A stretch of DNA of 10,231 nt. Source: a virus. The first letter of the stretch is position 1; every line of letters begins with the position of its first letter. The stretch is from the UHGV virus genome UHGV-0306718, one strand, 5' to 3'. Positions 51-8,352 of this stretch are shown one piece after another. The notes beneath the pieces are model-generated. The model was not told the origin of the DNA. It saw nothing but the letters and a program-made list of their open reading frames with translations, and did not search any database. A program made the translations under genes and the position numbers.

Positions 51-1466
51 ATGACTACGTGGCAACAGGATATTAATTCTGGTGGGTTTCTTGCTGGCAT
101 CGGGGCGCAAAATGAGAATGCGCCAAAGGCAAGCGACATTAACGCAACGCTTGGTCTGATCCGCGAAAACAATGAATTGGCTCGATCAGGTGCAAATAAC
201 GTTGCTCTGACAGGTCTTCGTGGTCTGGCTGGAGTTGCTGATATTTACAATCAGGAACAGCAACAGAAAGCGATTAGTGCGTTCAATAAGGTTCACGCTG
301 ATGCATGGGCTTCTGGTGATCCATCGGGACTATTTAAGTTTGCCCAGGAAAATCCAGCGTTTGTTGCACAGGCACAACAGGCGTTTTCCGGTCTTAATGA
401 TCAGCAACGCAACGATATGGGCGATTTAGCCATGAGGGCTAACGTCGCTCTTTCTCAGGGACCGGAAGCCTACAGTAAATTCATTACTGACAACAAGGAC
501 AGGTTAAATCGCGTGGGGGCGAATGCTGACTGGATGATTCAGACAGGTATCCAGAATCCAGAGCAGCTATCACACATGTTGACTACTATGTCTCTCGGTG
601 CGCTTGGACCAGAAAAGGCGTTTGCTGTTCAGGACAAGATGGCTGGTCGTGAAATTGACCGAGGCAAACTTGCAGAGACAATCCGCAGCAATCAGGCTGG
701 TGAAGCACTTCAGGCGAGAGGGCAAAACCTTTCCTATCAGTCAGCAATGACTGGGCACAATATCGCAGCACAACGCTTGGCTCTGGATCAGCAAGAGTTC
801 GGGTTTAAGATGCAGCAAGCGCAGGAAAAGGCTCAGCAGTTGATTAGCGAAGCACCTAAGCTGTCAGTAAACATGGAAAAAGGCATCGAGACGGCTGTAA
901 ACAATGCCACAGCATCATCAAACTCAGCCAATTCCATGAGTGCGCTTGCTCAACAGTTCAGAGCAGAAAAACCAACGACCGGCTTGTTCGGTAACGCACA
1001 GAACATGTTCGCAAAACTTACCGGAAGCGATACGACATTGCGTGATTTGCGCATTCGCCAAAATGCCCTTGTTAACAGTCAGGTTCTTAAATTCCTACCT
1101 CCCGGCCCAGCAACGGATAAAGACGTTGAGATCGTTCGACAGGGTGCGCCAACTGACATGGATAACCCTGAGACGGTCGCAAGATGGCTTGATGCAATGG
1201 CAAACCTTGAGCGACGAAACGCGCAGTTTAATGAGTTTAAAGCTGAGTGGATGAGCGCGAATGGCAACCCTGGACAATCGCGTAATGGCGGTCAGATATT
1301 GGGGTTGGATGTTAAAAAAGGTGAATCATTGGGGAGTGCCGTTAAGCGGTATATGTCAATGAATACTGACGCAGCGCCAGCACAAGATTCGACACCTTCA
1401 GGAGAACCACGGAATCAGGTTGGATCATATACCTCAAAATCAGGCATTCAATTTACGGTGGAATGA
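51..1466 (+). CDS. 20: Ejection / DNA-transfer protein gp20 (P22 gene 20 family)
   Basis: 471-aa ORF, the same length as P22 gp20 as I recall it; Q/A/N-rich composition typical of P22 E-proteins; sits immediately upstream of and overlaps a gp16-like gene; AAGGG-type SD upstream of the ATG at 51. Confidence 0.85.
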
Positions 1467-3304
1467 TGAAAGTAACTGCAAACGGTAAGACATTTACCTT
1501 TCCTGATGGTACGAGCACCGAAGATATTGGCACCGCCATTGATGAGTATTTTGCTGGTCAGGCTGTTCAGCAACAAACAGTTAATCAGGCCAATAATGCA
1601 CCAACACGGGAAGAACCATCATTGATGCAACAAGCTGGCGATTGGCTCACTGGTGGTCAAAGTGCAGGGCAAATTGCGGAACAGGCTGGTCGTGGTCTGG
1701 TAAACATACCATTTGACGTATTGCAGGGCGGCGCAAGTCTGATTAATGCAATCAGTCAGGGGCTTGGTGGCCCCAAGGTTTTGGACGATGTCTATCGTCC
1801 AGTCGATCGACCAACAGACCCTTATGCGCAAGCTGGAGAAACAATTGGCGGGTATTTAGTTCCAGGAGTTGGAACGGCAGGAAGCATGGCTATTGGATCA
1901 CTGGCAGAGGCCGCAAATCAGAAAGGCGATTTCGCACAAAATGCAGCTAAAAATGCCGGAGTTAACCTTGCCGCTCAGGGGGTTCTTTCCGCAGCAGCAA
2001 AGGGAATAGGGCGTGGAATAACGGCTATAAAAGGTGATATTGCGCCAGAAGTGGCGAAGAAAATTGCCACATCAGAATCGATGGGCGTGACACCAATGAC
2101 ATCTGATGTTATCCCGCCGAAAAATGCTTTCACTCGCGGCCTAACTCAGGATGCCGAGGGGGCTTTGCTCGGGACAGGCTCAAAGCGAGCGGAGCAATAT
2201 GCAACGCGTAGTAAGCTGGTAAGTAATTATTTTGACCGTTTTGGTGAGTACAACCCTGATGATGTGGTGAAATCTCTTACCACCACGTTAAGGGGGCGGA
2301 AGGATGCCGCTGGCGCTGTTATCAATGACGTCACCAATAAAATGGGTAATGCCGCAGTTGATACCACAAATACCATGAATGCTCTGAATACAGCGATCGC
2401 AAGACAGGAACGGCTTGGGACGTCTGCCAATCAAAGCCTGCTTACATCCTTGCGTAACCTACGTGAAGAATTAGCAAACCCTGCAACTGATTTGGATGTT
2501 ACGTTTGATCTCTTGCGTCAGCACAGAACAGCATTTAGATCTAATGTTCAGGGAGATGCTATGGTCTTCCCAAACCAGGCAAAAGCAGCTACCAATATGG
2601 TAGAGAATGCAATGTCAAAAGATCTTCGTAACGCAGTTGCAAAAAACCTCGGTGCATCAGACGCAGCAAAATACCTTAAAGCAAATTCCGATTATGCAAA
2701 CGTTTATAATAAGGTGCTTAATAAAAACATTGCTAACAAGCTCAACAAGGCAAGCAGTGAAGCCAGTCCTGAACTTATAAATACCGTTGTATTAAGCAGA
2801 AAACCATCTGACGTGAAACGAATCTGGAGCGCATTGGATAATAAAGGGAAAGATGCTATGCGTGCAGCTTATGTCAGCAAAATAGCGGAAAAGGCCGGTG
2901 ACTCTCCAGCCAAGTTCATCACTGAAGTTAATAAGCTGAAATCTCAGTCAGGCGGTGAAATTTACAACACTATTTTTTCTGGAAAGCACATGAAAGAGCT
3001 TGATTCTCTTCATGAAGTTCTACAGCAAACAGCAAGGTCAGACACCGCAAATGTAGTAACTCAGACGGGGCAATCGCAAGCCAACAGGATAAGGACGATT
3101 GGCGCAACTGCGACTCTTGGCGTATCAATGGGGCTTGAGGCTGGTTTCGGTGCAATGATGCGCTTGTATGAGTCAAAAGCAGCAAGGAATGCTCTCTTAC
3201 GTTTGGCAAACACCAAAGCAGGAACACCAGCCTATGAAAGAGCGATAAATAACGCTGCGAATGCCATCAGACCGCTGTTTGCTACTGAGGCAACACAGCA
3301 GTAA
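1463..3304 (+). CDS. 16: Ejection protein gp16 (P22 gene 16 family)
   Basis: 613-aa ORF starting [16 protein letters not shown]; its start overlaps the gp20 stop (ATGATGA), suggesting translational coupling; position and size match P22 gene 16 (about 609 aa). Confidence 0.85.
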
Positions 3305-3328
3305 CGTATGGGAAATTGGATTCAATCG

Positions 3329-3718
3329 CTAACATTTTCTTTTTACTTTTCCAACAAAAGCTTTGGTTGAATCCATATTTCCATAACCGGAAATGGTTTT
3401 TGACATTAAAACTGTTCCAGTAGGATGTATTACCCATGAGTCGATAACGCGTTGAGTTTCGCCATTCGCGCCGATTCCTATGATGGAGTTTTTAGACAAT
3501 GCTTTGTAAGCCATGCCGCCCGCATCTGTCCCAGAATATGTGATGCTGGCATCTTCACCGTTTGTCTTAATGATGAATGTTCCACTAAAACCATCTTCTT
3601 CCGGATGGAAATTATTTCGTTCTGAATAGCTTATTCCGCGCATATCTCCAACGACCCAGCACTCTGCTGTAGCCCCAAAAGATATGAATAAGAACATAGC
3701 AGTAAGAAATTGCTTCAC
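3329..3718 (-). CDS. Hypothetical secreted (periplasmic) protein, 129 aa, probable accessory (moron) gene
   Basis: GTG start at 3718 with a perfect SD (AAGGAGG, 5-nt spacer); N-terminus MKQFLTAMFLFISFGATA|E looks like a Sec signal peptide with an AxA cleavage site; mature part has Cys near both termini; local GC about 35% versus about 50-55% in neighbouring virion genes. The longer 201-aa ORF in the track is an upstream extension with no RBS. Confidence 0.6.
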   Translation of the reverse strand: MKQFLTAMFLFISFGATAECWVVGDMRGISYSERNNFHPEEDGFSGTFIIKTNGEDASITYSGTDAGGMAYKALSKNSIIGIGANGETQRVIDSWVIHPTGTVLMSKTISGYGNMDSTKAFVGKVKRKC

Positions 3719-3748
3719 GCCAACCTCCTTAGTTTTGCGCAGGATACC

Positions 3749-4114
3749 ATGAAAAAAGTTAACATTGGAAACGTACCAAAGATGCTCGTTCCGCTCTTTG
3801 AGAGCGGTACAATTGTGTTTTGTAGAGACTTTCCAGAATGGCAACGCCTGCATCAAAAACTTGGCGTTGACGTGCATGACTCGGACGCCAACGGAGCGTC
3901 TCATACAATGAGTAGCGAGAATGGTGTTTTGCATGTGATAGGCGTGTTCAATGGCAAACTATCTACTATTGCCCATGAGTGCGCTCACATGGCATTCGAT
4001 ATCTGCTCAAGGGTAGGTGTTGATGTTGAACCAGGAAGAGCCAACGAGACTTACTGCTACTTAATGAGCAGGCTTGTTGAGTTCTGCGAGCGACATATCA
4101 AAAAGCCGGAGTGA
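3749..4114 (+). CDS. Hypothetical protein with HEXXH (zinc-metallopeptidase-like) motif, 121 aa
   Basis: ATG at 3749 preceded by AGGA; contains HECAH followed by a downstream Glu (NETYCY); divergently transcribed from the secreted-protein gene with only 30 bp between the two start codons. Family not recognised. Confidence 0.55.
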   Translation: MKKVNIGNVPKMLVPLFESGTIVFCRDFPEWQRLHQKLGVDVHDSDANGASHTMSSENGVLHVIGVFNGKLSTIAHECAHMAFDICSRVGVDVEPGRANETYCYLMSRLVEFCERHIKKPE

Positions 4115-4127
4115 CCTGGCTTGATTA

Positions 4128-4307
4128 TTACTTTTTGCTGTCTGGAGTTCGCTTATCCAATACCCAGCCATGACCTGGCTTTGTTGTTGGTGGAAGCCTT
4201 TCGTTGTCCTTGACGGTTGCAAAATTGTCTTTCTTACCGCCGCGTGGGCCAACTTCTTGGTATATTCCGCCGTTTTTTCCTGTGTTTTCACCTGGTTTTT
4301 TCGCCAT
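4128..4307 (-). CDS. Small hypothetical protein (59 aa), resembles the YjzC-like small-protein family
   Basis: Internal ATG at 4307 preceded by GAGG with a 6-nt spacer; sequence MAKKPGENTGKNGGIYQEVGPRGG...PPTTKPGHGWVL recalls the PG..G.Y.E.G signature of YjzC-like proteins (from memory, unverified); convergent with the HEXXH gene. Confidence 0.5.
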   Translation of the reverse strand: MAKKPGENTGKNGGIYQEVGPRGGKKDNFATVKDNERLPPTTKPGHGWVLDKRTPDSKK

Positions 4308-4343
4308 GATATACCTCAACATACACCCGTTATTGGGCGATTA

Positions 4344-4372
4344 AATATTGATCTCATTTTATAAGTAGTCAA
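4344..4372 (-). promoter_or_regulatory. Candidate sigma70 promoter for the small YjzC-like gene
   Basis: On the minus strand: TTGACT (-35, plus coords 4367-4372), 17-bp spacer, AATATT (-10, 4344-4349); about 30 nt upstream of the SD. Confidence 0.3.
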
Positions 4373-4390
4373 TATGGCCCAGGTAAATGC

Positions 4391-4421
4391 AAAAATTAAC
4401 CCACCTTCAGGTGGGTTTTTT
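4391..4421. terminator. Bidirectional intrinsic terminator at the 3' end of mnt
   Basis: 8-bp stem AACCCACC / GGTGGGTT with a 4-nt loop; followed by TTTTT on the plus strand and AATTTTT on the minus strand; the mnt stop codon sits in the loop. Confidence 0.6.
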
Positions 4422-4658
4422 GTACAAATCCTTCAGCGTATCAAACACCATCTTCTTAACAAGCTCTGACTGCTCATCAGCGAGTCGTTCTGCATCGTCG
4501 CGATATCCAGTCACAGGCGATGGTTTTGATAGAGCATCTTGGACGATTTGTAACAACTCGGAGTTCATTGATCTCCCATTCGCCTCCGCCCTGAATTTTA
4601 ATTTCTCCCTTACTTCCATAGGCATACGGAAGTTAAAGTGCGGATCATCTCTAGCCAT
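4407..4658 (-). CDS. mnt: Mnt repressor (ribbon-helix-helix; maintenance of lysogeny, represses Pant)
   Basis: 83-codon ORF MARDDPHFNFRMPMEVREKLKFRAEANGRSMNSELLQIVQDALSKPS... is essentially identical to P22 Mnt as recalled. Confidence 0.95.
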   Translation of the reverse strand: MARDDPHFNFRMPMEVREKLKFRAEANGRSMNSELLQIVQDALSKPSPVTGYRDDAERLADEQSELVKKMVFDTLKDLYKKPT

Positions 4659-4680
4659 GCCATCACTCCAAGTTAGTGTA

Positions 4681-4709
4681 TTGACATGATAGAAGCACTC
4701 TACTATATT
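4681..4709 (+). promoter_or_regulatory. Pant promoter (drives arc-ant)
   Basis: TTGACA at 4681-4686, 17-bp spacer, TATATT at 4704-4709; about 40 nt upstream of arc. Confidence 0.7.
4686..4706. promoter_or_regulatory. Arc operator (Oarc)
   Basis: ATGATAGAAGCACTCTACTAT matches the 21-bp P22 arc operator as recalled; lies between the -35 and -10 of both Pant and Pmnt. Confidence 0.8.
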
Positions 4710-4714
4710 CTCAA
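4686..4714 (-). promoter_or_regulatory. Pmnt promoter (divergent from Pant)
   Basis: Minus strand: TTGAGA (-35, plus 4709-4714), 17-bp spacer, TATCAT (-10, plus 4686-4691); mnt start codon at 4658. Confidence 0.65.
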
Positions 4715-4734
4715 TAGGTCCACCGTGGACCTAT
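4714..4734. promoter_or_regulatory. Mnt operator (Omnt)
   Basis: Perfect 21-bp palindrome ATAGGTCCACCGTGGACCTAT, containing the P22 mnt operator core; positioned over the Pant start region. Confidence 0.8.
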
Positions 4735-4748
4735 ATTGTGAGGTGAAC

Positions 4749-4910
4749 ATGAAAGGAATGAGCAAAATGCCGCAGTTCAATTTGCGGTGGCCTAAAGAAG
4801 TATTGGATTTGGTACGCAAGGTGGCGGAAGAGAATGGTCGGTCTGTTAACTCTGAGATTTATCAGAGAGTAATGGAAAGCTTTAAGAAGGAAGGGCGCAT
4901 TGGCGCGTAA
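4749..4910 (+). CDS. arc: Arc repressor (ribbon-helix-helix)
   Basis: 53-aa protein [53 protein letters not shown], near-identical to P22 Arc; GAGGTGA SD; the longer track ORF from 4686 is an unsupported upstream extension. Confidence 0.95.
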
Positions 4911-4978
4911 AGTTGAAGCCCCAACTGCGGGAACAGTCAGGGCTTCGTTTGTCAGTAAATCCGTGGAGAAAAACCAAC
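4910..4978 (-). ncRNA. sar: sar antisense RNA (small antisense regulator of ant translation)
   Basis: Extended -10 promoter TGcTATACT on the minus strand inside the first ant codons (plus 4985-4993); a transcript starting near 4978 is antisense to the ant SD (GGAG 4965-4968) and contains an imperfect hairpin (4915-4946); predicted length about 69 nt, matching the known 68-69 nt P22 sar. Ends are approximate. Confidence 0.5.
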
Positions 4979-5881
4979 ATGAATAGTATAGCAATTTTAG
5001 AAGCAGTGAACACCTCTTACGTACCATTCAACGGTCAGCAAATTATCACCGCCATGGCTGCCGGAGTTGCATATGTTGCGATGAAGCCAATCGTTGAAAA
5101 CCTTGGAATGAGTTGGGGTACTCAGCAACAAAAACTTATGAAACAACTAGATAAGTTCAACTGTATTCATATGAATATGGTTGCCGCTGATGGTAAGCTT
5201 CGTAAGCTACTCTGCCTTCCTTTGAAGAAGTTAAATGGATGGCTGTTCAGCATCAACCCTGAGAAAGTTCGTGCTGACATCCGCGATAAACTGATTCAGT
5301 ACCAGGAAGAATGCTTTACTGTGCTGCATGACTACTGGACAAAGGGAAAGGCAGAAAATGCACGTAAGAAAACATCTGTTGATGACAGGACTCCGCTTCG
5401 TGATGCTGTAAATATGCTGGTCAGCAAAAAGCATCTAATGTACCCAGAAGCTTATGCAATGATTCATCAGCGTTTCAATGTGGAAAGTATTGAAGAGCTT
5501 GATGCATCTCAGATACCGCAAGCCGTAGAGTACATCCACAGGGTAGTGCTTGAAGGCGAGTTCATCGGCAAACAAGAGAAGAAAACCAACGAGCTTTCTG
5601 CAAAAGAAGCAAACAGCCTTGTATGGTTATGGGATTATGCCAACCGCTCACAGGCATTATTCCGCGAACTGTATCCGGCGCTAAAACAAATTCAATCGAA
5701 CTATTCCGGCAGATGCTACGACTACGGTCATGAGTTCTCGTATGTTATCGGAATGGCGAGAGACGTTTTAATCAATCACACACGAGATGTTGATATTAAT
5801 GAGCCAGACGGACCAACGAATCTTTCCGCATGGATGAGACTTAAGAATAAAGAATTACCTCCTTCAGTACATAATTACTGA
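4979..5881 (+). CDS. ant: Antirepressor Ant
   Basis: 300-aa ORF from the ATG at 4979 ([21 protein letters not shown]...), SD GGAG about 10 nt upstream; matches P22 Ant in size and position after arc; the 22 upstream codons in the track ORF overlap the arc stop and lack an RBS. Confidence 0.9.
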
Positions 5882-5900
5882 CAGATAACCAACGCAACGA

Positions 5901-5923
5901 CCCAGCTTCGGCTGGGTTTTTTT
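5901..5923 (+). terminator. Intrinsic terminator after ant
   Basis: CCCAGC-TTCG-GCTGGG hairpin followed by TTTTTTT. Confidence 0.8.
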
Positions 5924-5981
5924 ATGCCCAAAATTCACCGTAGTCATGCTGCGGCGATTCCTTGTATCTGGAGCAAATTAA

Positions 5982-7973
5982 ATGACAGATATCACCGCAA
6001 ATGTTGTGGTAAGCATGCCTTCGCAACTCTTCACTATGGCGCGTTCTTTTAAAGCCGTAGCTAATGGCAAAATTTATATCGGTAAAATTGACACTGACCC
6101 GGTAAATCCTGATAACCAGATTCAGGTCTATGTTGAGAACGAAGATGGTTCTCACGTTCCTGTTGCACAGCCAATCGTCATCAATGCCGCTGGGTATCCA
6201 GTATATAACGGACAGATTGCCAAATTCGTAACTGTGCAAGGCCATTCTATGGCTGTTTATGATGCATGTGGTGCGCAGCAGTTCTATTTTCCAAATGTGC
6301 TGAAGTATGACCCGGATCAGTTAAGGCAGGAGTTAGCAAGTTCAGGTGATGATCTTGGAGATGCATTAATAGCAGTAAAACAACCATTCACCTTGTCAAT
6401 AAGAAGGACGCAGCATCAAAAAAATGCCGAGCACATTAGTGTTAGTGATTTTGGTGCAAAAGGAGACGGCATAACAGATGATACTGTAGCAATTCAAAAT
6501 GCTATTAATGCAGTACCAGAAGGGGCTATACTTGGATTTTATGGTGGTGAATTTGTTTTTGATAAGGTTGAATTGCTTAAGCCAATAACATTGGTTGGTG
6601 ATGCAACGTTAATTCACAACGGATTTAGAATAAAATCTAGCAGAATACGATCACTTTTATCTGGTGTTCAGAAATGCAAGGATTACTCCGAGTCTTCAAG
6701 AGCATTTTATTGCTATGCAAATGAAGACCAAAGAGATTATGACGATATTCAGATTTTGTTTAATAGATTTGAAGGTTTCTTTTACTCTACGGCATTTGTT
6801 GCAAAAAACTATTATTTGGAGAATGACCCTAATTCAAGAACTGTCAAAAATACAAAAGTAATAGGATGTACATCAGTTGCTCCTGATTCTGTAAATGCCG
6901 GTCATTTTCAACATATAGGCGTTACAAATGCTGAAACATCACATAACTCAACTTATGGCGGACAAAATGCAACATCATACAACTTCATTAACCAGAATGG
7001 ATTTGTAAGGATTATAGGAAATTATGACCATAACAATAGCTATGGTTCATGTGAGCTTGAGAACTCAATGGTGAGTAACTCAGTCATATCATGTAATACG
7101 TTTTCGTCATATTTATGGGTGGATGATACAAGCAATGTTACTATTTCTGGAAATACAGTTTCATCAAGGATCAAAGTAACATCGCAAACTGACGATGTTC
7201 ATAATATAACCATATCAGCAAATACCACAAAACGGATTACTATAGAGCAATTTGGAGAATCTCCGACAGGTCTGGTATATGGTGCATTAATTTCCTGTAA
7301 CACTATTACTGGCGACAGTGATGGAAGTTCAGACATTTTATGTACGTCACTTGTTACAGGTGAAATTTCATCAAATTATTGTCATGGATCAGAAAAAAAT
7401 ATATCAATTGTCCGCCTGGATTCTTCTGATATAACTGTTAGAAACAATAAAGGAAACAAAGGATTACTTACAATAAGTAACGATGGTGGGAGGATAATTG
7501 AATATGGCAATGATTCTATGGTTCTGTCTGGAAGCATAGATAGCAGACATATACATAATTTATTACAACCAGACACATCGTATTTAGATCTACCGGGGAA
7601 ATATCTGCACGGAACTAAATATACTGGCAGTATCCCCCCCGGTTCCACAGGAACTGTATCACTTCAAATACCATCAGGGGCAAGCCTTGTTTTCAGGGGT
7701 GTTTCTATATGGGTTCTAATTAGAGATGTTAGCAATAACAATATATCGTCATTCAGAATTGATGGTTCATATAGAGTTGTTGGTGGAAGTGTTGGTCTTA
7801 GTTTTGCTGATGCTTATTCGAAACTCGGGGTGGATGCAAACTCTATAACAGTGTCAAACAATAACAGCACTTCTGACAATATCAGCATAGCAATTAAAAA
7901 CACAGATTCATCAAAAACCCTTCAGGTTACTGTTATGCCGGAGGTTTCAAGCAGGTTAGGTATTGAGGAATAG
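5982..7973 (+). CDS. 9: Tailspike protein: P22-type head-binding N-domain fused to a divergent pectate-lyase-like beta-helix receptor-binding domain
   Basis: N-terminus [11 protein letters not shown]...[13 protein letters not shown]...[11 protein letters not shown]...NVLKYDPDQ matches the P22 gp9 head-binding domain; downstream sequence is unrelated to P22 gp9 and carries the [22 protein letters not shown] motif typical of pectin-lyase-fold depolymerases; SD GGAG upstream of the ATG. Confidence 0.9.
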
Positions 7974-8049: not shown

Positions 8050-8352
8050 ATGATGAATATAGAAGTTGATATAACACCAATTCTTCACGCACTTTGCGCT
8101 GTTGTCGCACAAGTTCTGGTTGGTCTTTTTACCGGAAACTGGGCTTACGGTGCGATAGCCGGTTGTACGTTCTTCATTGCGCGTGAACACACCCAGGCAG
8201 AATATCGCTGGATTGAAATGTTCGGGCATGGCAAGCGTATGAATATGCCGTGGTGGGGTGGTTTTGATCCACGCGTGTGGGATGTAGGAAGCCTTATGGA
8301 TTTTTCTTTCCCAATTATCGGATGCTTATTGGTATGGATTCTTGCATCGTAG
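8050..8352 (+). CDS. Hypothetical small inner-membrane protein (100 aa, about 3 predicted TM segments)
   Basis: ORF with three hydrophobic stretches (ITPILHALCAVVAQVLVGLF, AYGAIAGCTFFIA, FPIIGCLLVWILAS); occupies the position between tailspike and att/int where P22-like phages carry O-antigen-modifying conversion genes; weak SD. Confidence 0.45.
   Translation: MMNIEVDITPILHALCAVVAQVLVGLFTGNWAYGAIAGCTFFIAREHTQAEYRWIEMFGHGKRMNMPWWGGFDPRVWDVGSLMDFSFPIIGCLLVWILAS

What the first reader, a model, noticed from the sequence alone, without database searches (positions are those of the whole stretch)
3305..4406. Low-GC three-gene accessory cassette at the sieA/hkcC position between gp16 and immI
In P22 the interval between gene 16 and mnt holds superinfection-exclusion genes. 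Here it holds three different small genes in an unusual layout: a secreted protein (minus), a HEXXH-motif protein (plus) starting only 30 bp from it on the other strand, and a convergent small YjzC-like gene (minus). A bidirectional terminator at 4391-4421 insulates the cassette from immI. Spot GC counts are about 35% in the secreted-protein gene versus about 55% in gp16. This is the signature of a horizontally acquired moron and a plausible location for an undescribed exclusion, defence or host-interaction function.
Basis: partly seen in the sequence, partly recalled or inferred. Interest (0 to 1): 0.6.

Follow-up and report, generated by a model that had tools for sequence, protein, structure and literature searches.

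The report
Hex-family exported protein replacing sieA
In this P22-like E. coli prophage, two of the three flagged genes are P22's own unexplained hkcC and orf59a, and the third replaces the exclusion gene sieA with an exported small barrel protein related to phage 434 Hex, making it a plausible but untested phage-exclusion factor.

Summary
The three ORFs, the 30-bp divergent gap, the HEXXH motif and the hairpin at 4398-4417 are real. The "low-GC cassette" is not: the genes are 40.8, 46.2 and 46.7% GC, against 46.9% for gp16.

The three genes are not a unit. Window 3716-4498 is 97.8% identical to P22 itself. The HEXXH gene is hkcC (99% identical to the HK620 protein) and the small gene is P22 orf59a. 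This interval is the published, highly variable "ant moron".

Only the first gene (3329-3718, minus strand) differs from P22. It replaces the sieA coding sequence exactly from the shared GTG start codon. It keeps the sieA ribosome-binding site and 83 of the 85 upstream bases that suffice for sieA function in P22.

The protein has a signal peptide and an invariant cysteine pair, and models confidently as a small closed beta-barrel. It belongs to the same phage family (PHROG 2651) as phage 434 Hex, which is reported to exclude P22, and Sf6 gp38.

In 80 related prophages this position holds 12 unrelated genes. Eleven of them have a hydrophobic N-terminal segment that suggests envelope targeting.

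I read it as a prophage-expressed periplasmic protein, probably a superinfection-exclusion factor. Function is inferred. Interest is moderate.

The parts
1463..3304 (+). Gene 16 homologue (ejection protein gp16). Its last ~40-55 nt form the left edge of the exchanged segment.
   Evidence: ORF. It is 73-75% nt identical to P22 gene 16. Homology with prophages carrying other slot genes ends at 3250-3265 or at 3302.
3329..3718 (-). Gene A: 129-aa Hex-family (PHROG 2651) exported protein in the sieA slot. It has an 18-aa signal peptide and a 111-aa mature beta-barrel with Cys20 and Cys129.
   Evidence: GTG 3718 aligns with the P22 sieA GTG start. PHROG 2651 match at E 2.9e-61. 27% full-length identity to 434 Hex; the Hex-type cluster P0024 scores E 4e-49 against the family profile. 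Model pLDDT 89.9. Signal peptide and cysteine statistics. Emek orf129 is 96.9% identical.
3719..3748 (-). 5' leader of gene A with ribosome-binding site AAGGAGG (3730-3724), 5 nt before the GTG. It is shared with P22 sieA.
   Evidence: Sequence. The alignment to P22 shows two mismatches, at 3719 and 3738. The same leader precedes most slot genes in 80 prophages.
3749..3779 (-). Counterpart of the annotated P22 sieA promoter (PsieA), lying inside the first 31 nt of hkcC.
   Evidence: The P22 promoter feature at 13861-13891 maps to window 3749-3779, which is 100% identical. In P22, 85 bp upstream of sieA sufficed for ectopic exclusion (PMC10883804). The generic sigma-70 scan did not flag this site.
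3749..4114 (+). Gene B = hkcC: 121-aa protein with an HExxH...E motif, co-oriented with the late operon. It is conserved backbone, not a new insertion.
   Evidence: 99.2% aa identity to HK620 hkcC and to the unannotated P22 ORF. PHROG 1365 match at E 1.7e-39. 552 representative clusters. H76, E77 and E100 invariant. Against P22 there are 6 nt differences in the CDS and only 1 changes an amino acid.
4103..4122 (.). Weaker hairpin between hkcC and orf59a. It corresponds to the feature P22 annotates as the mnt terminator and HK620 as bidirectional tORF59A.
   Evidence: Scan. Fold of -9.9 and -8.5 kcal/mol, z about -1.9. Annotations.
4128..4307 (-). Gene C = P22 orf59a (HK620 'HkcD'): 59 aa, weakly YjzC-like.
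   Evidence: One aa difference from P22 orf59a. PHROG 3202 match at E 7e-31. Pfam YjzC at E 1.3e-3, below cut-off. Present in 70 of 80 hkcC-bearing prophages.
4344..4372 (-). Promoter-like site upstream of orf59a (TTGACT, 17-nt spacer, AATATT).
   Evidence: Consensus scan only, 9 of 12 matches. The total number of sites is not above the shuffled expectation. Unverified.
4398..4417 (.). Bidirectional terminator-like hairpin overlapping the mnt stop codon.
4407..4658 (-). mnt, the start of the immI region (mnt, arc, sar, ant). It is the right-hand neighbour and not part of the swapped segment.
   Evidence: Pfam Arc plus Repressor_Mnt. sar RNA at 4911-4978. Window 3716-5950 is 92% identical to P22.

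Best explanation
The interval is the left part of the known 'ant moron' of a P22-like E. coli prophage. It consists of one exchangeable slot followed by two conserved backbone genes.

The slot is a fixed expression context: the sieA promoter (inside the first 31 nt of hkcC), the AAGGAGG ribosome-binding site and a GTG start codon. In P22 this context drives sieA. Here it drives gene A.

Gene A encodes a 129-aa precursor. I infer that it is exported by Sec, cleaved after ATA and folded in the periplasm into a ~12-kDa closed beta-barrel. An N-terminal to C-terminal disulfide (Cys20-Cys129) probably closes the barrel.

Gene A belongs to the family of phage 434 Hex and Sf6 gp38. I infer that it is made constitutively by the prophage and acts in the cell envelope. 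It probably blocks entry of superinfecting P22-like phages, for example by interfering with the trans-periplasmic ejection-protein conduit. That would make it a periplasmic alternative to the inner-membrane SieA.

hkcC is a small HExxH...E metal-site protein, probably a SprT-like or gluzincin-type protease. Because it is co-oriented with the late operon, it is probably expressed late in lytic growth. orf59a is a small basic protein downstream of mnt. Neither is functionally tied to gene A.

Shown: homology, slot geometry, signal-peptide and cysteine conservation, the fold model and the allele survey. Inferred: lysogen expression, export and exclusion.
For: Exact replacement of sieA:
- P22 homology (97.8%) starts at window 3716, inside the start codon. 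Both genes start with GTG at the same base.
- The P22 PsieA feature maps to a 100% identical stretch, and 83 of 85 upstream bases are identical.
- Those 85 bp plus sieA sufficed for exclusion when placed ectopically (PMC10883804).

Family membership:
- Gene A and 434 Hex hit the same PHROG 2651, at E 2.9e-61 and 1.4e-58.
- They share 27% identity over the full length. The Hex-type cluster P0024 scores E 4e-49 against the family profile, and intermediates run from 30 to 66% identity.

Export:
- The family signal peptide is 17-27 aa (median 19), with K/R near the N-terminus in 78 of 79 members and Ala at -1 in 70 of 79.
- 78 of 79 members have exactly two Cys, at the first and last strands.
- The N-terminus of the published stable Hex fragment (E43) is exactly the predicted signal-peptidase site.

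Wiring to prophage-expressed genes recurs:
- A 4-nt overlap downstream of cI.
- An ATGA overlap downstream of mnt in another P22-like phage.
- The sieA slot here.

Phenotype of the relative: lambda-imm434 lysogens of Salmonella exclude P22 and hex- lysogens do not (Susskind and Botstein 1980, as cited in PMC3564112).

Slot survey: 80 hkcC-bearing prophages carry 12 unrelated slot genes (SieA 13, Hex-like 12, a lipoprotein 18, and others). Eleven of the 12 have an N-terminal signal, lipobox or membrane segment.
Against: - No experiment addresses gene A.
- The only biochemical paper on the family assigns Hex a cytoplasmic role, blocking RecA-stimulated repressor cleavage (PMC3564112).
- I could not read the original exclusion paper, so the stage at which Hex blocks P22 is unknown. 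It could be a post-injection, Rex/SieB-like block.
- The 27% identity to Hex leaves room for a changed function.
- No PADLOC, Pfam or NCBIfam model matches.
- The fold matches are generic and suggest no mechanism.
- The generic promoter scan did not detect PsieA.
- The disulfide and the periplasmic location are predictions. I could not inspect model coordinates.
Confidence: 0.55

Rival explanations
1. Gene A works as published for 434 Hex. It would be a cytoplasmic factor that protects the prophage repressor from RecA-stimulated autocleavage, stabilising lysogeny rather than excluding phages.
For: - Deleting hex raised spontaneous induction about 30-fold, and only in recA+ hosts.
- A Hex fragment inhibited cleavage of the 434 and P22 repressors in vitro (PMC3564112).
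- Family members are often translationally coupled to cI or mnt.
Against: - The signal peptide is conserved family-wide and the cysteine pair is invariant, which points to an exported protein.
- The active 'sHex' starts exactly at the predicted signal-peptidase site. It is only about half of the predicted barrel, and it was purified through guanidine.
- hex overlaps the cI stop by 4 nt, so a deletion could act in cis on cI expression. This last point is my inference.
- In the window, gene A is not next to a cleavable repressor.
Confidence: 0.12
2. Gene A is a lysogenic-conversion envelope protein unrelated to phage exclusion. It could be a periplasmic binding protein or an inhibitor (for example of lysozyme or a lytic transglycosylase) that benefits the host.
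For: - The family also occurs in Aeromonas genomic islands outside recognisable prophage immunity regions.
- No defence-model match.
Against: - It takes over the sieA expression context precisely.
- The one characterised homologue was named for a phage-exclusion phenotype.
- The only slot gene with a known function, SieA, is an exclusion protein.
Confidence: 0.2
3. Gene A is an integral outer-membrane beta-barrel, like NspA, OmpW or PagP, that alters the surface or a secondary receptor.
For: - One phage record labels the homologue 'PagP'.
Against: - The mature protein is only 111 aa, with GRAVY -0.33.
- No family member ends in an aromatic residue. C-termini are Cys or Cys plus two polar residues.
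- From my own knowledge, the smallest known outer-membrane barrels are about 148 aa or more and end in an aromatic beta-signal.
Confidence: 0.08
4. One reading: the three genes form one horizontally acquired low-GC cassette with a joint defence or host-interaction function, insulated by the terminator.
For: The genes are adjacent and compact, and terminator-like hairpins flank them.
Against: - Two of the three genes are P22's own, at 97.8% nt identity.
- hkcC and orf59a accompany 12 different slot genes.
- Gene A occurs without them.
- The full layout is in 21 E. coli genomes, against 147 that carry gene A.
- GC content is ordinary.
Confidence: 0.05

Closest known systems
Phage 434 Hex / Shigella phage Sf6 gp38 (PHROG 2651)
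   Same: - Full-length homology, and the same PHROG.
- The same signal peptide followed by a Cys-Trp pair two residues into the mature protein (ECW here and in Hex), and the same C-terminal Cys.
- The same predicted barrel.
- Placement in a prophage-expressed position.
   Different: - Only 27% identity.
- Hex sits downstream of cI on the PRM transcript, whereas gene A sits under the sieA promoter between gene 16 and immI.
- The published Hex mechanism is cytoplasmic, which fits poorly with the exported-protein features seen here.
P22 SieA (superinfection exclusion A)
   Same: - Identical genomic slot, start codon position and ribosome-binding site.
- A near-identical 85-bp upstream region.
- Both are envelope-targeted.
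   Different: - No sequence similarity (BLASTP E 0.99).
- SieA is a 3-helix inner-membrane protein with an FxRYPxEAxxFNK motif.
- Gene A is a cleaved-signal soluble-type barrel with no further membrane segment.
'ant moron' of P22-like phages (Villafane et al. 2008, PMC2629481)
   Same: It is the same interval between genes 16 and 9. It was already described as highly variable, and as containing sieA, hkcC and 59a in P22.
   Different: As far as I could read, the paper does not describe three things: the fixed promoter-RBS-GTG context, the envelope bias of the slot genes, or the Hex relationship.
HK620 hkcB-hkcC-HkcD arrangement
   Same: hkcC is 99% identical, orf59a equals HkcD, and the terminator after hkcC is the same. 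The slot gene hkcB also starts with GTG at the same place.
   Different: The slot gene is unrelated. HkcB is a membrane-anchored coiled-coil protein.
SprT-like / minimal gluzincin metallopeptidases (for hkcC)
   Same: - HExxH with an invariant Glu 20 residues after the second His.
- A beta-beta-alpha-beta-beta-alpha-alpha secondary-structure order, with the motif on the penultimate helix.
- A few structural neighbours among viral models are named SprT-like, Metalloprotease or IrrE.
- 2 of 110 relatives hit Pfam SprT-like.
   Different: - hkcC itself has no Pfam hit.
- Only 2 of 5 structure models were confident.

Membership tests
434 Hex / Sf6 gp38 family (PHROG 2651) | Significant full-length sequence similarity to family members and to the family profile. 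| tested here: met
   PHROG 2651 at E 2.9e-61 for gene A and 1.4e-58 for 434 Hex. BLASTP gives 27% identity over 129 of 134 aa. The Hex-type cluster P0024 scores E 4e-49 against the family profile.
434 Hex / Sf6 gp38 family (PHROG 2651) | N-terminal signal peptide followed by a Cys-Trp pair, plus a C-terminal Cys. | tested here: met
   C20 and W21 are invariant and C129 is at least 90% conserved in 79 sequences. 78 of 79 have exactly two Cys. Ala is at -1 in 70 of 79.
434 Hex / Sf6 gp38 family (PHROG 2651) | Expression from the prophage in lysogens. | not testable with these tools
   Only positional evidence is available. The P22 PsieA counterpart is 100% conserved and 83 of 85 upstream bases are identical. 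Relatives are coupled to cI or mnt.
434 Hex / Sf6 gp38 family (PHROG 2651) | Exclusion of superinfecting P22 (the phenotype that named Hex). | not testable with these tools
   Known only for 434 Hex, through PMC3564112 citing Susskind and Botstein 1980.
SieA superinfection-exclusion proteins (types A-C) | Sequence similarity to SieA, three transmembrane helices and the FxRYPxEAxxFNK motif. | tested here: not met
   BLASTP E 0.99. The only hydrophobic segment is the signal peptide. The motif is absent from the sequence.
SieA superinfection-exclusion proteins (types A-C) | Position between genes 16 and 9 of a P22-like prophage, on the minus strand under PsieA. | tested here: met
Zincin metallopeptidase, SprT-like (PF10263) or gluzincin (gene B, hkcC) | An HExxH motif plus a conserved third metal ligand. 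| tested here: met
   H76, E77 and E100 are invariant and H80 is at least 90% conserved in 110 relatives at 22-44% identity.
Zincin metallopeptidase, SprT-like (PF10263) or gluzincin (gene B, hkcC) | A match to the curated family model above its threshold. | tested here: not met
   hkcC has no Pfam or NCBIfam hit. Only 2 of 110 relatives hit SprT-like, at E 1e-4.
Zincin metallopeptidase, SprT-like (PF10263) or gluzincin (gene B, hkcC) | Zincin fold: a mixed sheet, an active-site helix and a ligand helix. | tested here: inconclusive
YjzC (PF14168) (gene C, orf59a) | A match to the Pfam model above the gathering score. | tested here: inconclusive
   19.4 bits against a cut-off of 25, E 1.3e-3, covering 46 of 59 residues. 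UniRef labels the exact sequence 'YjzC family protein'.
'ant moron' of P22-like phages | A variable, non-morphogenetic gene set between the gene 16 and gene 9 homologues that includes immI elements. | tested here: met
   gp16 at 1463-3304, mnt, arc, sar and ant at 4407-5881, and the tailspike at 5982-7973. Definition in PMC2629481.
Known anti-phage defence systems (PADLOC-DB 2.0) | A match of any of the three proteins to a defence-system model. | tested here: not met
   Zero families at E <= 1.

The most novel reading that the evidence does not exclude
The sieA position of P22-like prophages is a fixed 'expression socket': the PsieA promoter, the ribosome-binding site and a GTG, embedded in the 5' end of hkcC. 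At least a dozen unrelated envelope-targeted genes are exchanged at this socket as alternative entry-blocking factors. The window's occupant and its relative 434 Hex would then be secreted periplasmic barrels that stop P22-type DNA delivery from the periplasm. That would make them a new mechanistic class of exclusion protein for short-tailed phages. It would also mean the published cytoplasmic anti-RecA role of Hex is secondary or an artefact.
Probability: 0.33. Interest if true: 0.6.

Novelty: new member of a known kind. Interest (0 to 1): 0.38.

Why it matters
SieA is the only slot gene here with a known function, and only about a third of sequenced P22-like phages carry it (PMC10883804). 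Identifying what fills the same position elsewhere gives a short list of candidate entry-blocking proteins that can be tested with existing P22 genetics.

The Hex link is useful in two ways. It gives gene A a concrete phenotype to test, namely P22 exclusion. It also raises a checkable doubt about the accepted cytoplasmic mechanism of 434 Hex.

Gene A is common. It is in 147 of 5426 complete E. coli genomes, and the exact protein is on at least 1000 public contigs. Any effect on phage susceptibility would therefore matter for phage typing and therapy.

The finding is not a new kind of system. The region, the gene family and the idea of prophage exclusion genes are all established.

Tried and rejected
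- Low-GC island: rejected by direct counts.
- Three-gene cassette: rejected by P22 and HK620 identity and by the 80-locus survey.
- Pfam, NCBIfam and PADLOC gave nothing for genes A and B. The weak lantibiotic hits to hkcC (E 0.14 and 0.026) are chance matches to the H-E-C region.
- PDB sequence-profile searches found nothing for hkcC and only chance hits (E > 1) for gene A.
- HkcB, the HK620 slot gene, is not related to gene A.
- The right-hand neighbours of gene A in Emek and in E. coli SD134209 are not hkcC relatives.
- The search for related loci with the 79-sequence alignment failed because no stretch was conserved enough.
- The afdb50 fold library was unavailable.
- Literature searches found no link between Hex or Sf6 gp38 and the sieA slot, and no further work on Hex.
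- No tRNA lies in the window.
Full report
**What the window is**

The window is the late-operon end of a P22-like prophage in E. coli.
- Gene 20 is at 51-1466 and gene 16 at 1463-3304.
- The flagged interval follows, then mnt (4407-4658, -), arc, sar RNA (4911-4978, -) and ant (to 5881).
- The tailspike is at 5982-7973. A small membrane ORF and a foreign integrase lie beyond it.
- That integrase sits next to sbcB in E. coli genomes.

**Checking the observation**

The three ORFs exist as described.
- Gene A runs 3329-3718 on the minus strand.
- Gene B runs 3749-4114 on the plus strand, exactly 30 bp from gene A.
- Gene C runs 4128-4307 on the minus strand.
- The hairpin at 4398-4417 is a perfect 8-bp stem with an A-run before it and a T-run after it. 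It is much more stable than shuffled controls on both strands. It overlaps the mnt stop codon.

The GC claim fails.
- Genes A, B and C are 40.8, 46.2 and 46.7% GC. gp16 is 46.9% and the whole window 44.3%.
- Only the 3' end of gene A dips to 37.5% in one 200-nt window.
- The truly low-GC part of the window is the tailspike.

**Two of the three genes are P22's own**

- Window 3716-4498 matches phage P22 at 97.8%, and the match continues at 92% through immI to 5950.
- Gene B is 99.2% identical in protein to HK620 hkcC. It is equally close to an ORF that is present in P22 but unannotated in the reference record.
- Gene C differs by one residue from P22 orf59a.
- The epsilon34 genome paper already lists the P22 content of this interval as sieA, hkcC and 59a. 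It names the region the "ant moron" and reports ten versions in sixteen genomes (PMC2629481).
- So the statement that this window holds three different genes is wrong for two of them. The general variability of the region is already known.

**Gene A replaces sieA precisely**

- Homology to P22 begins at 3716, inside the start codon. P22 sieA and gene A both start with GTG at the same base.
- Both are preceded by AAGGAGG five bases upstream.
- The annotated P22 sieA promoter maps to window 3749-3779, inside the first 31 nt of hkcC, and is identical there.
- Of the 85 bp upstream of the start codon, 83 are identical to P22. In P22, those 85 bp plus sieA gave full exclusion when moved to galK (PMC10883804).
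- Lysogen expression of gene A is therefore a reasonable inference. I could not test it, and the generic promoter scan does not flag the site.
- The GTG start also fits the family. All homologues have a 17-27 residue leader with a K or R near the start. The ATG chosen by automatic annotation (122 aa) would leave only an 11-residue leader.

**What gene A encodes**

- It has no Pfam, NCBIfam or PADLOC match.
- It does hit PHROG 2651 at E 2.9e-61.
- A translated search of phage genomes found near-identical copies in Salmonella phages Emek (orf129, 96.9%) and ST-35.
- It also found full-length 27% matches to the gene downstream of cI in phages 434, Sf6 (gene 38), HK446, HK633 and Sf101.
- The 434 gene is hex. 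Hex hits the same PHROG at E 1.4e-58.
- A profile search found 115 clusters in Enterobacterales and Aeromonas that bridge the two types at 30-66% identity.
- Across 79 full-length members the leader is a standard signal peptide: Ala at -1 in 70, and Ser or Ala at -3 in 72. The mature protein starts one residue before an invariant Cys-Trp and ends at a conserved Cys. 78 of 79 have exactly these two cysteines.
- AlphaFold gives a confident closed barrel for residues 19-128, with pLDDT 89.9 overall and above 95 for most of the barrel.
- The small size (111 aa), net polarity, lack of a C-terminal aromatic residue and terminal cysteine pair argue for a soluble periplasmic barrel rather than an outer-membrane protein. 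That step is inference.

**What is known about Hex, and a discrepancy**

- Hex stands for heterologous exclusion. Salmonella lysogenic for lambda-imm434 excludes P22, and hex- lysogens do not (Susskind and Botstein 1980, as cited in PMC3564112). I could not read the original, so the stage of the block is unknown.
- The 2013 paper instead proposes that Hex inhibits RecA-stimulated repressor cleavage in the cytoplasm.
- That paper reports that full-length Hex was toxic when over-expressed. Its stable fragment, "sHex", spans E43 to N103 of a 158-residue reading.
- Translating the 434 sequence shows that E43 is the residue right after the predicted signal-peptidase site ANS|E. N103 falls in the middle of the predicted barrel.
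- The paper does not mention a signal peptide, the periplasm or membranes.
- This does not disprove the published role. It does fit an exported protein better than a cytoplasmic one.

**Where the family sits**

- In an Enterobacter prophage, the Hex-type gene overlaps the cI stop by 4 nt.
- In another P22-like phage from gut metagenomes, a 51%-identical copy overlaps the mnt stop (ATGA). It lies between immI and gene 16.
- In Enterobacter kobei, a copy lies convergent to cI.
- In Aeromonas, it lies in genomic islands.
- Three separate arrangements thus tie the family to genes that prophages express during lysogeny.

**The slot is a general exchange point**

I fetched 80 viral contigs that carry hkcC and read the ORF divergent from it.
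- Sixty have a GTG (one an ATG) exactly 31 nt from the hkcC start. Eighteen have an ATG four bases further on. Two carry a 7-nt duplication.
- The ORFs fall into 12 clusters with no detectable similarity between them.
- The counts are: a 161-aa lipoprotein (18), SieA (13), Hex-like (12), HkcB (8), a 75-aa protein with several hydrophobic segments (8), a second 109-aa anchored coiled-coil type (6), a 106-aa protein (5), a 62-aa protein (4), a 68-aa YobH-like protein (2), a 149-aa protein (2), a 99-aa protein (1) and a 140-aa protein (1).
- Eleven of the 12 begin with a signal peptide, lipobox or membrane segment. This rests partly on hydropathy scores and partly on reading the N-terminal sequences.
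- Apart from SieA, all are of unknown function.
- The right breakpoint is at 3715/3716 for most alleles. The left breakpoint is within the last ~50 nt of gene 16 or at its stop.
- One gp16 C-terminal type (95-99% identical to the window's) occurs with five different slot genes.
- One contig (L082) carries two copies of the 35-bp leader, each with its own slot gene.
- This sample is not random. It was selected for carrying hkcC.

**Do the three genes travel together?**

No.
- orf59a is present in 70 of the 80 hkcC-selected loci, whichever slot gene they carry.
- Gene A is in 147 of 5426 complete E. coli genomes, but the full three-gene layout is in only 21.
- In Emek and in E. coli SD134209, gene A has unrelated right-hand neighbours. 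In SD134209 only the first ~18 nt of hkcC remain.

**hkcC**

- The family is large: 552 representative clusters at E <= 1e-3, mostly stand-alone proteins of 110-140 aa.
- In 110 diverse members only H76, E77 and E100 are invariant, and H80 is nearly so. This spacing resembles a gluzincin-type metal site; that comparison rests on my own knowledge of thermolysin-like enzymes.
- The model has the order beta-beta-alpha-beta-beta-alpha-alpha with the motif on the penultimate helix. Only two of five models were confident.
- Foldseek against viral models finds many unnamed phage proteins and a few labelled SprT-like, Metalloprotease or IrrE.
- Two of 110 relatives touch Pfam SprT-like.
- Compared with P22, five of six nucleotide differences are silent, so the frame is under selection.
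- It is co-oriented with the late operon and has no detected promoter of its own. I infer late lytic expression.
- I treat hkcC as a probable small metallopeptidase of unknown target, not as an established family member.

**Verdict**

- The interval is a known variable region. Two genes are conserved backbone of P22 and HK620.
- The one real difference from P22 is a Hex-family exported barrel installed in the sieA expression context.
- The most likely role is prophage-encoded exclusion acting in the envelope. I put family membership and export together at about 0.85, and exclusion itself at about 0.5.
- This is a new member of a known kind and of moderate interest.
- Its main value is a clear experimental candidate, plus a testable doubt about how 434 Hex works.

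Noticed in passing
L003 2429-2905 (phage 434 hex), compared with window 3329-3718: The published stable Hex fragment (E43-N103 of a 158-aa reading) starts exactly at the predicted signal-peptidase site ANS|E and ends mid-barrel. The paper that assigns Hex a cytoplasmic anti-RecA role never mentions a signal peptide.
   Followed up: partly
L082 1756-4366: One prophage contig has a compound slot. The order is gene 16, a 149-aa membrane-protein slot gene with its own copy of the 35-bp leader, a 343-aa and a 61-aa plus-strand gene, the Hex-like gene with a second leader, then hkcC.
   Followed up: partly
L024 and 17 other loci, about 34 nt upstream of hkcC on the minus strand: The commonest slot gene in the sample (18 of 80) is a 161-aa lipoprotein (MKKSLLIIPLLLAGC..., PHROG 6067) of unknown function. 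It is another untested candidate for an envelope-acting prophage factor.
   Followed up: partly
L011 5719-8229: In the gut-metagenome P22-like phage where the Hex-like gene is coupled to mnt, the gene 16 homologue is 836 aa long and carries a lytic transglycosylase (SLT) domain.
   Followed up: no
window 6500-7500: The receptor-binding part of the tailspike is the real low-GC segment of the window (32-35% against 44% overall). It has no megablast match in most related prophages, as expected for an exchanged host-range module.
   Followed up: no
window 8996-10208: A P4-type integrase ORF on the plus strand lacks its normal C-terminus. A 52-aa integrase C-terminal piece lies inverted at 10050-10208. 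The 5' part of this integrase gene (up to about window 10015) matches E. coli genomes, where it lies next to sbcB. It probably belongs to a neighbouring element and has been rearranged.
   Followed up: partly
window 8050-8352: A 100-aa ORF with hydrophobic segments lies just after the tailspike (PHROG 1443, unknown function). This is the position where P22-like phages often carry O-antigen-modifying genes.
   Followed up: no
window 4911-4978 (-): A complete sar antisense RNA (Rfam RF00262, 92 bits). With intact mnt, arc and ant genes present as well, the immI region looks complete.
   Followed up: yes
L006 7390-7440: In E. coli SD134209, gene A is 100% identical. Only the leader and the first ~18 nt of hkcC survive before unrelated sequence begins. 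The distal half of the PsieA counterpart therefore differs there.
   Followed up: no
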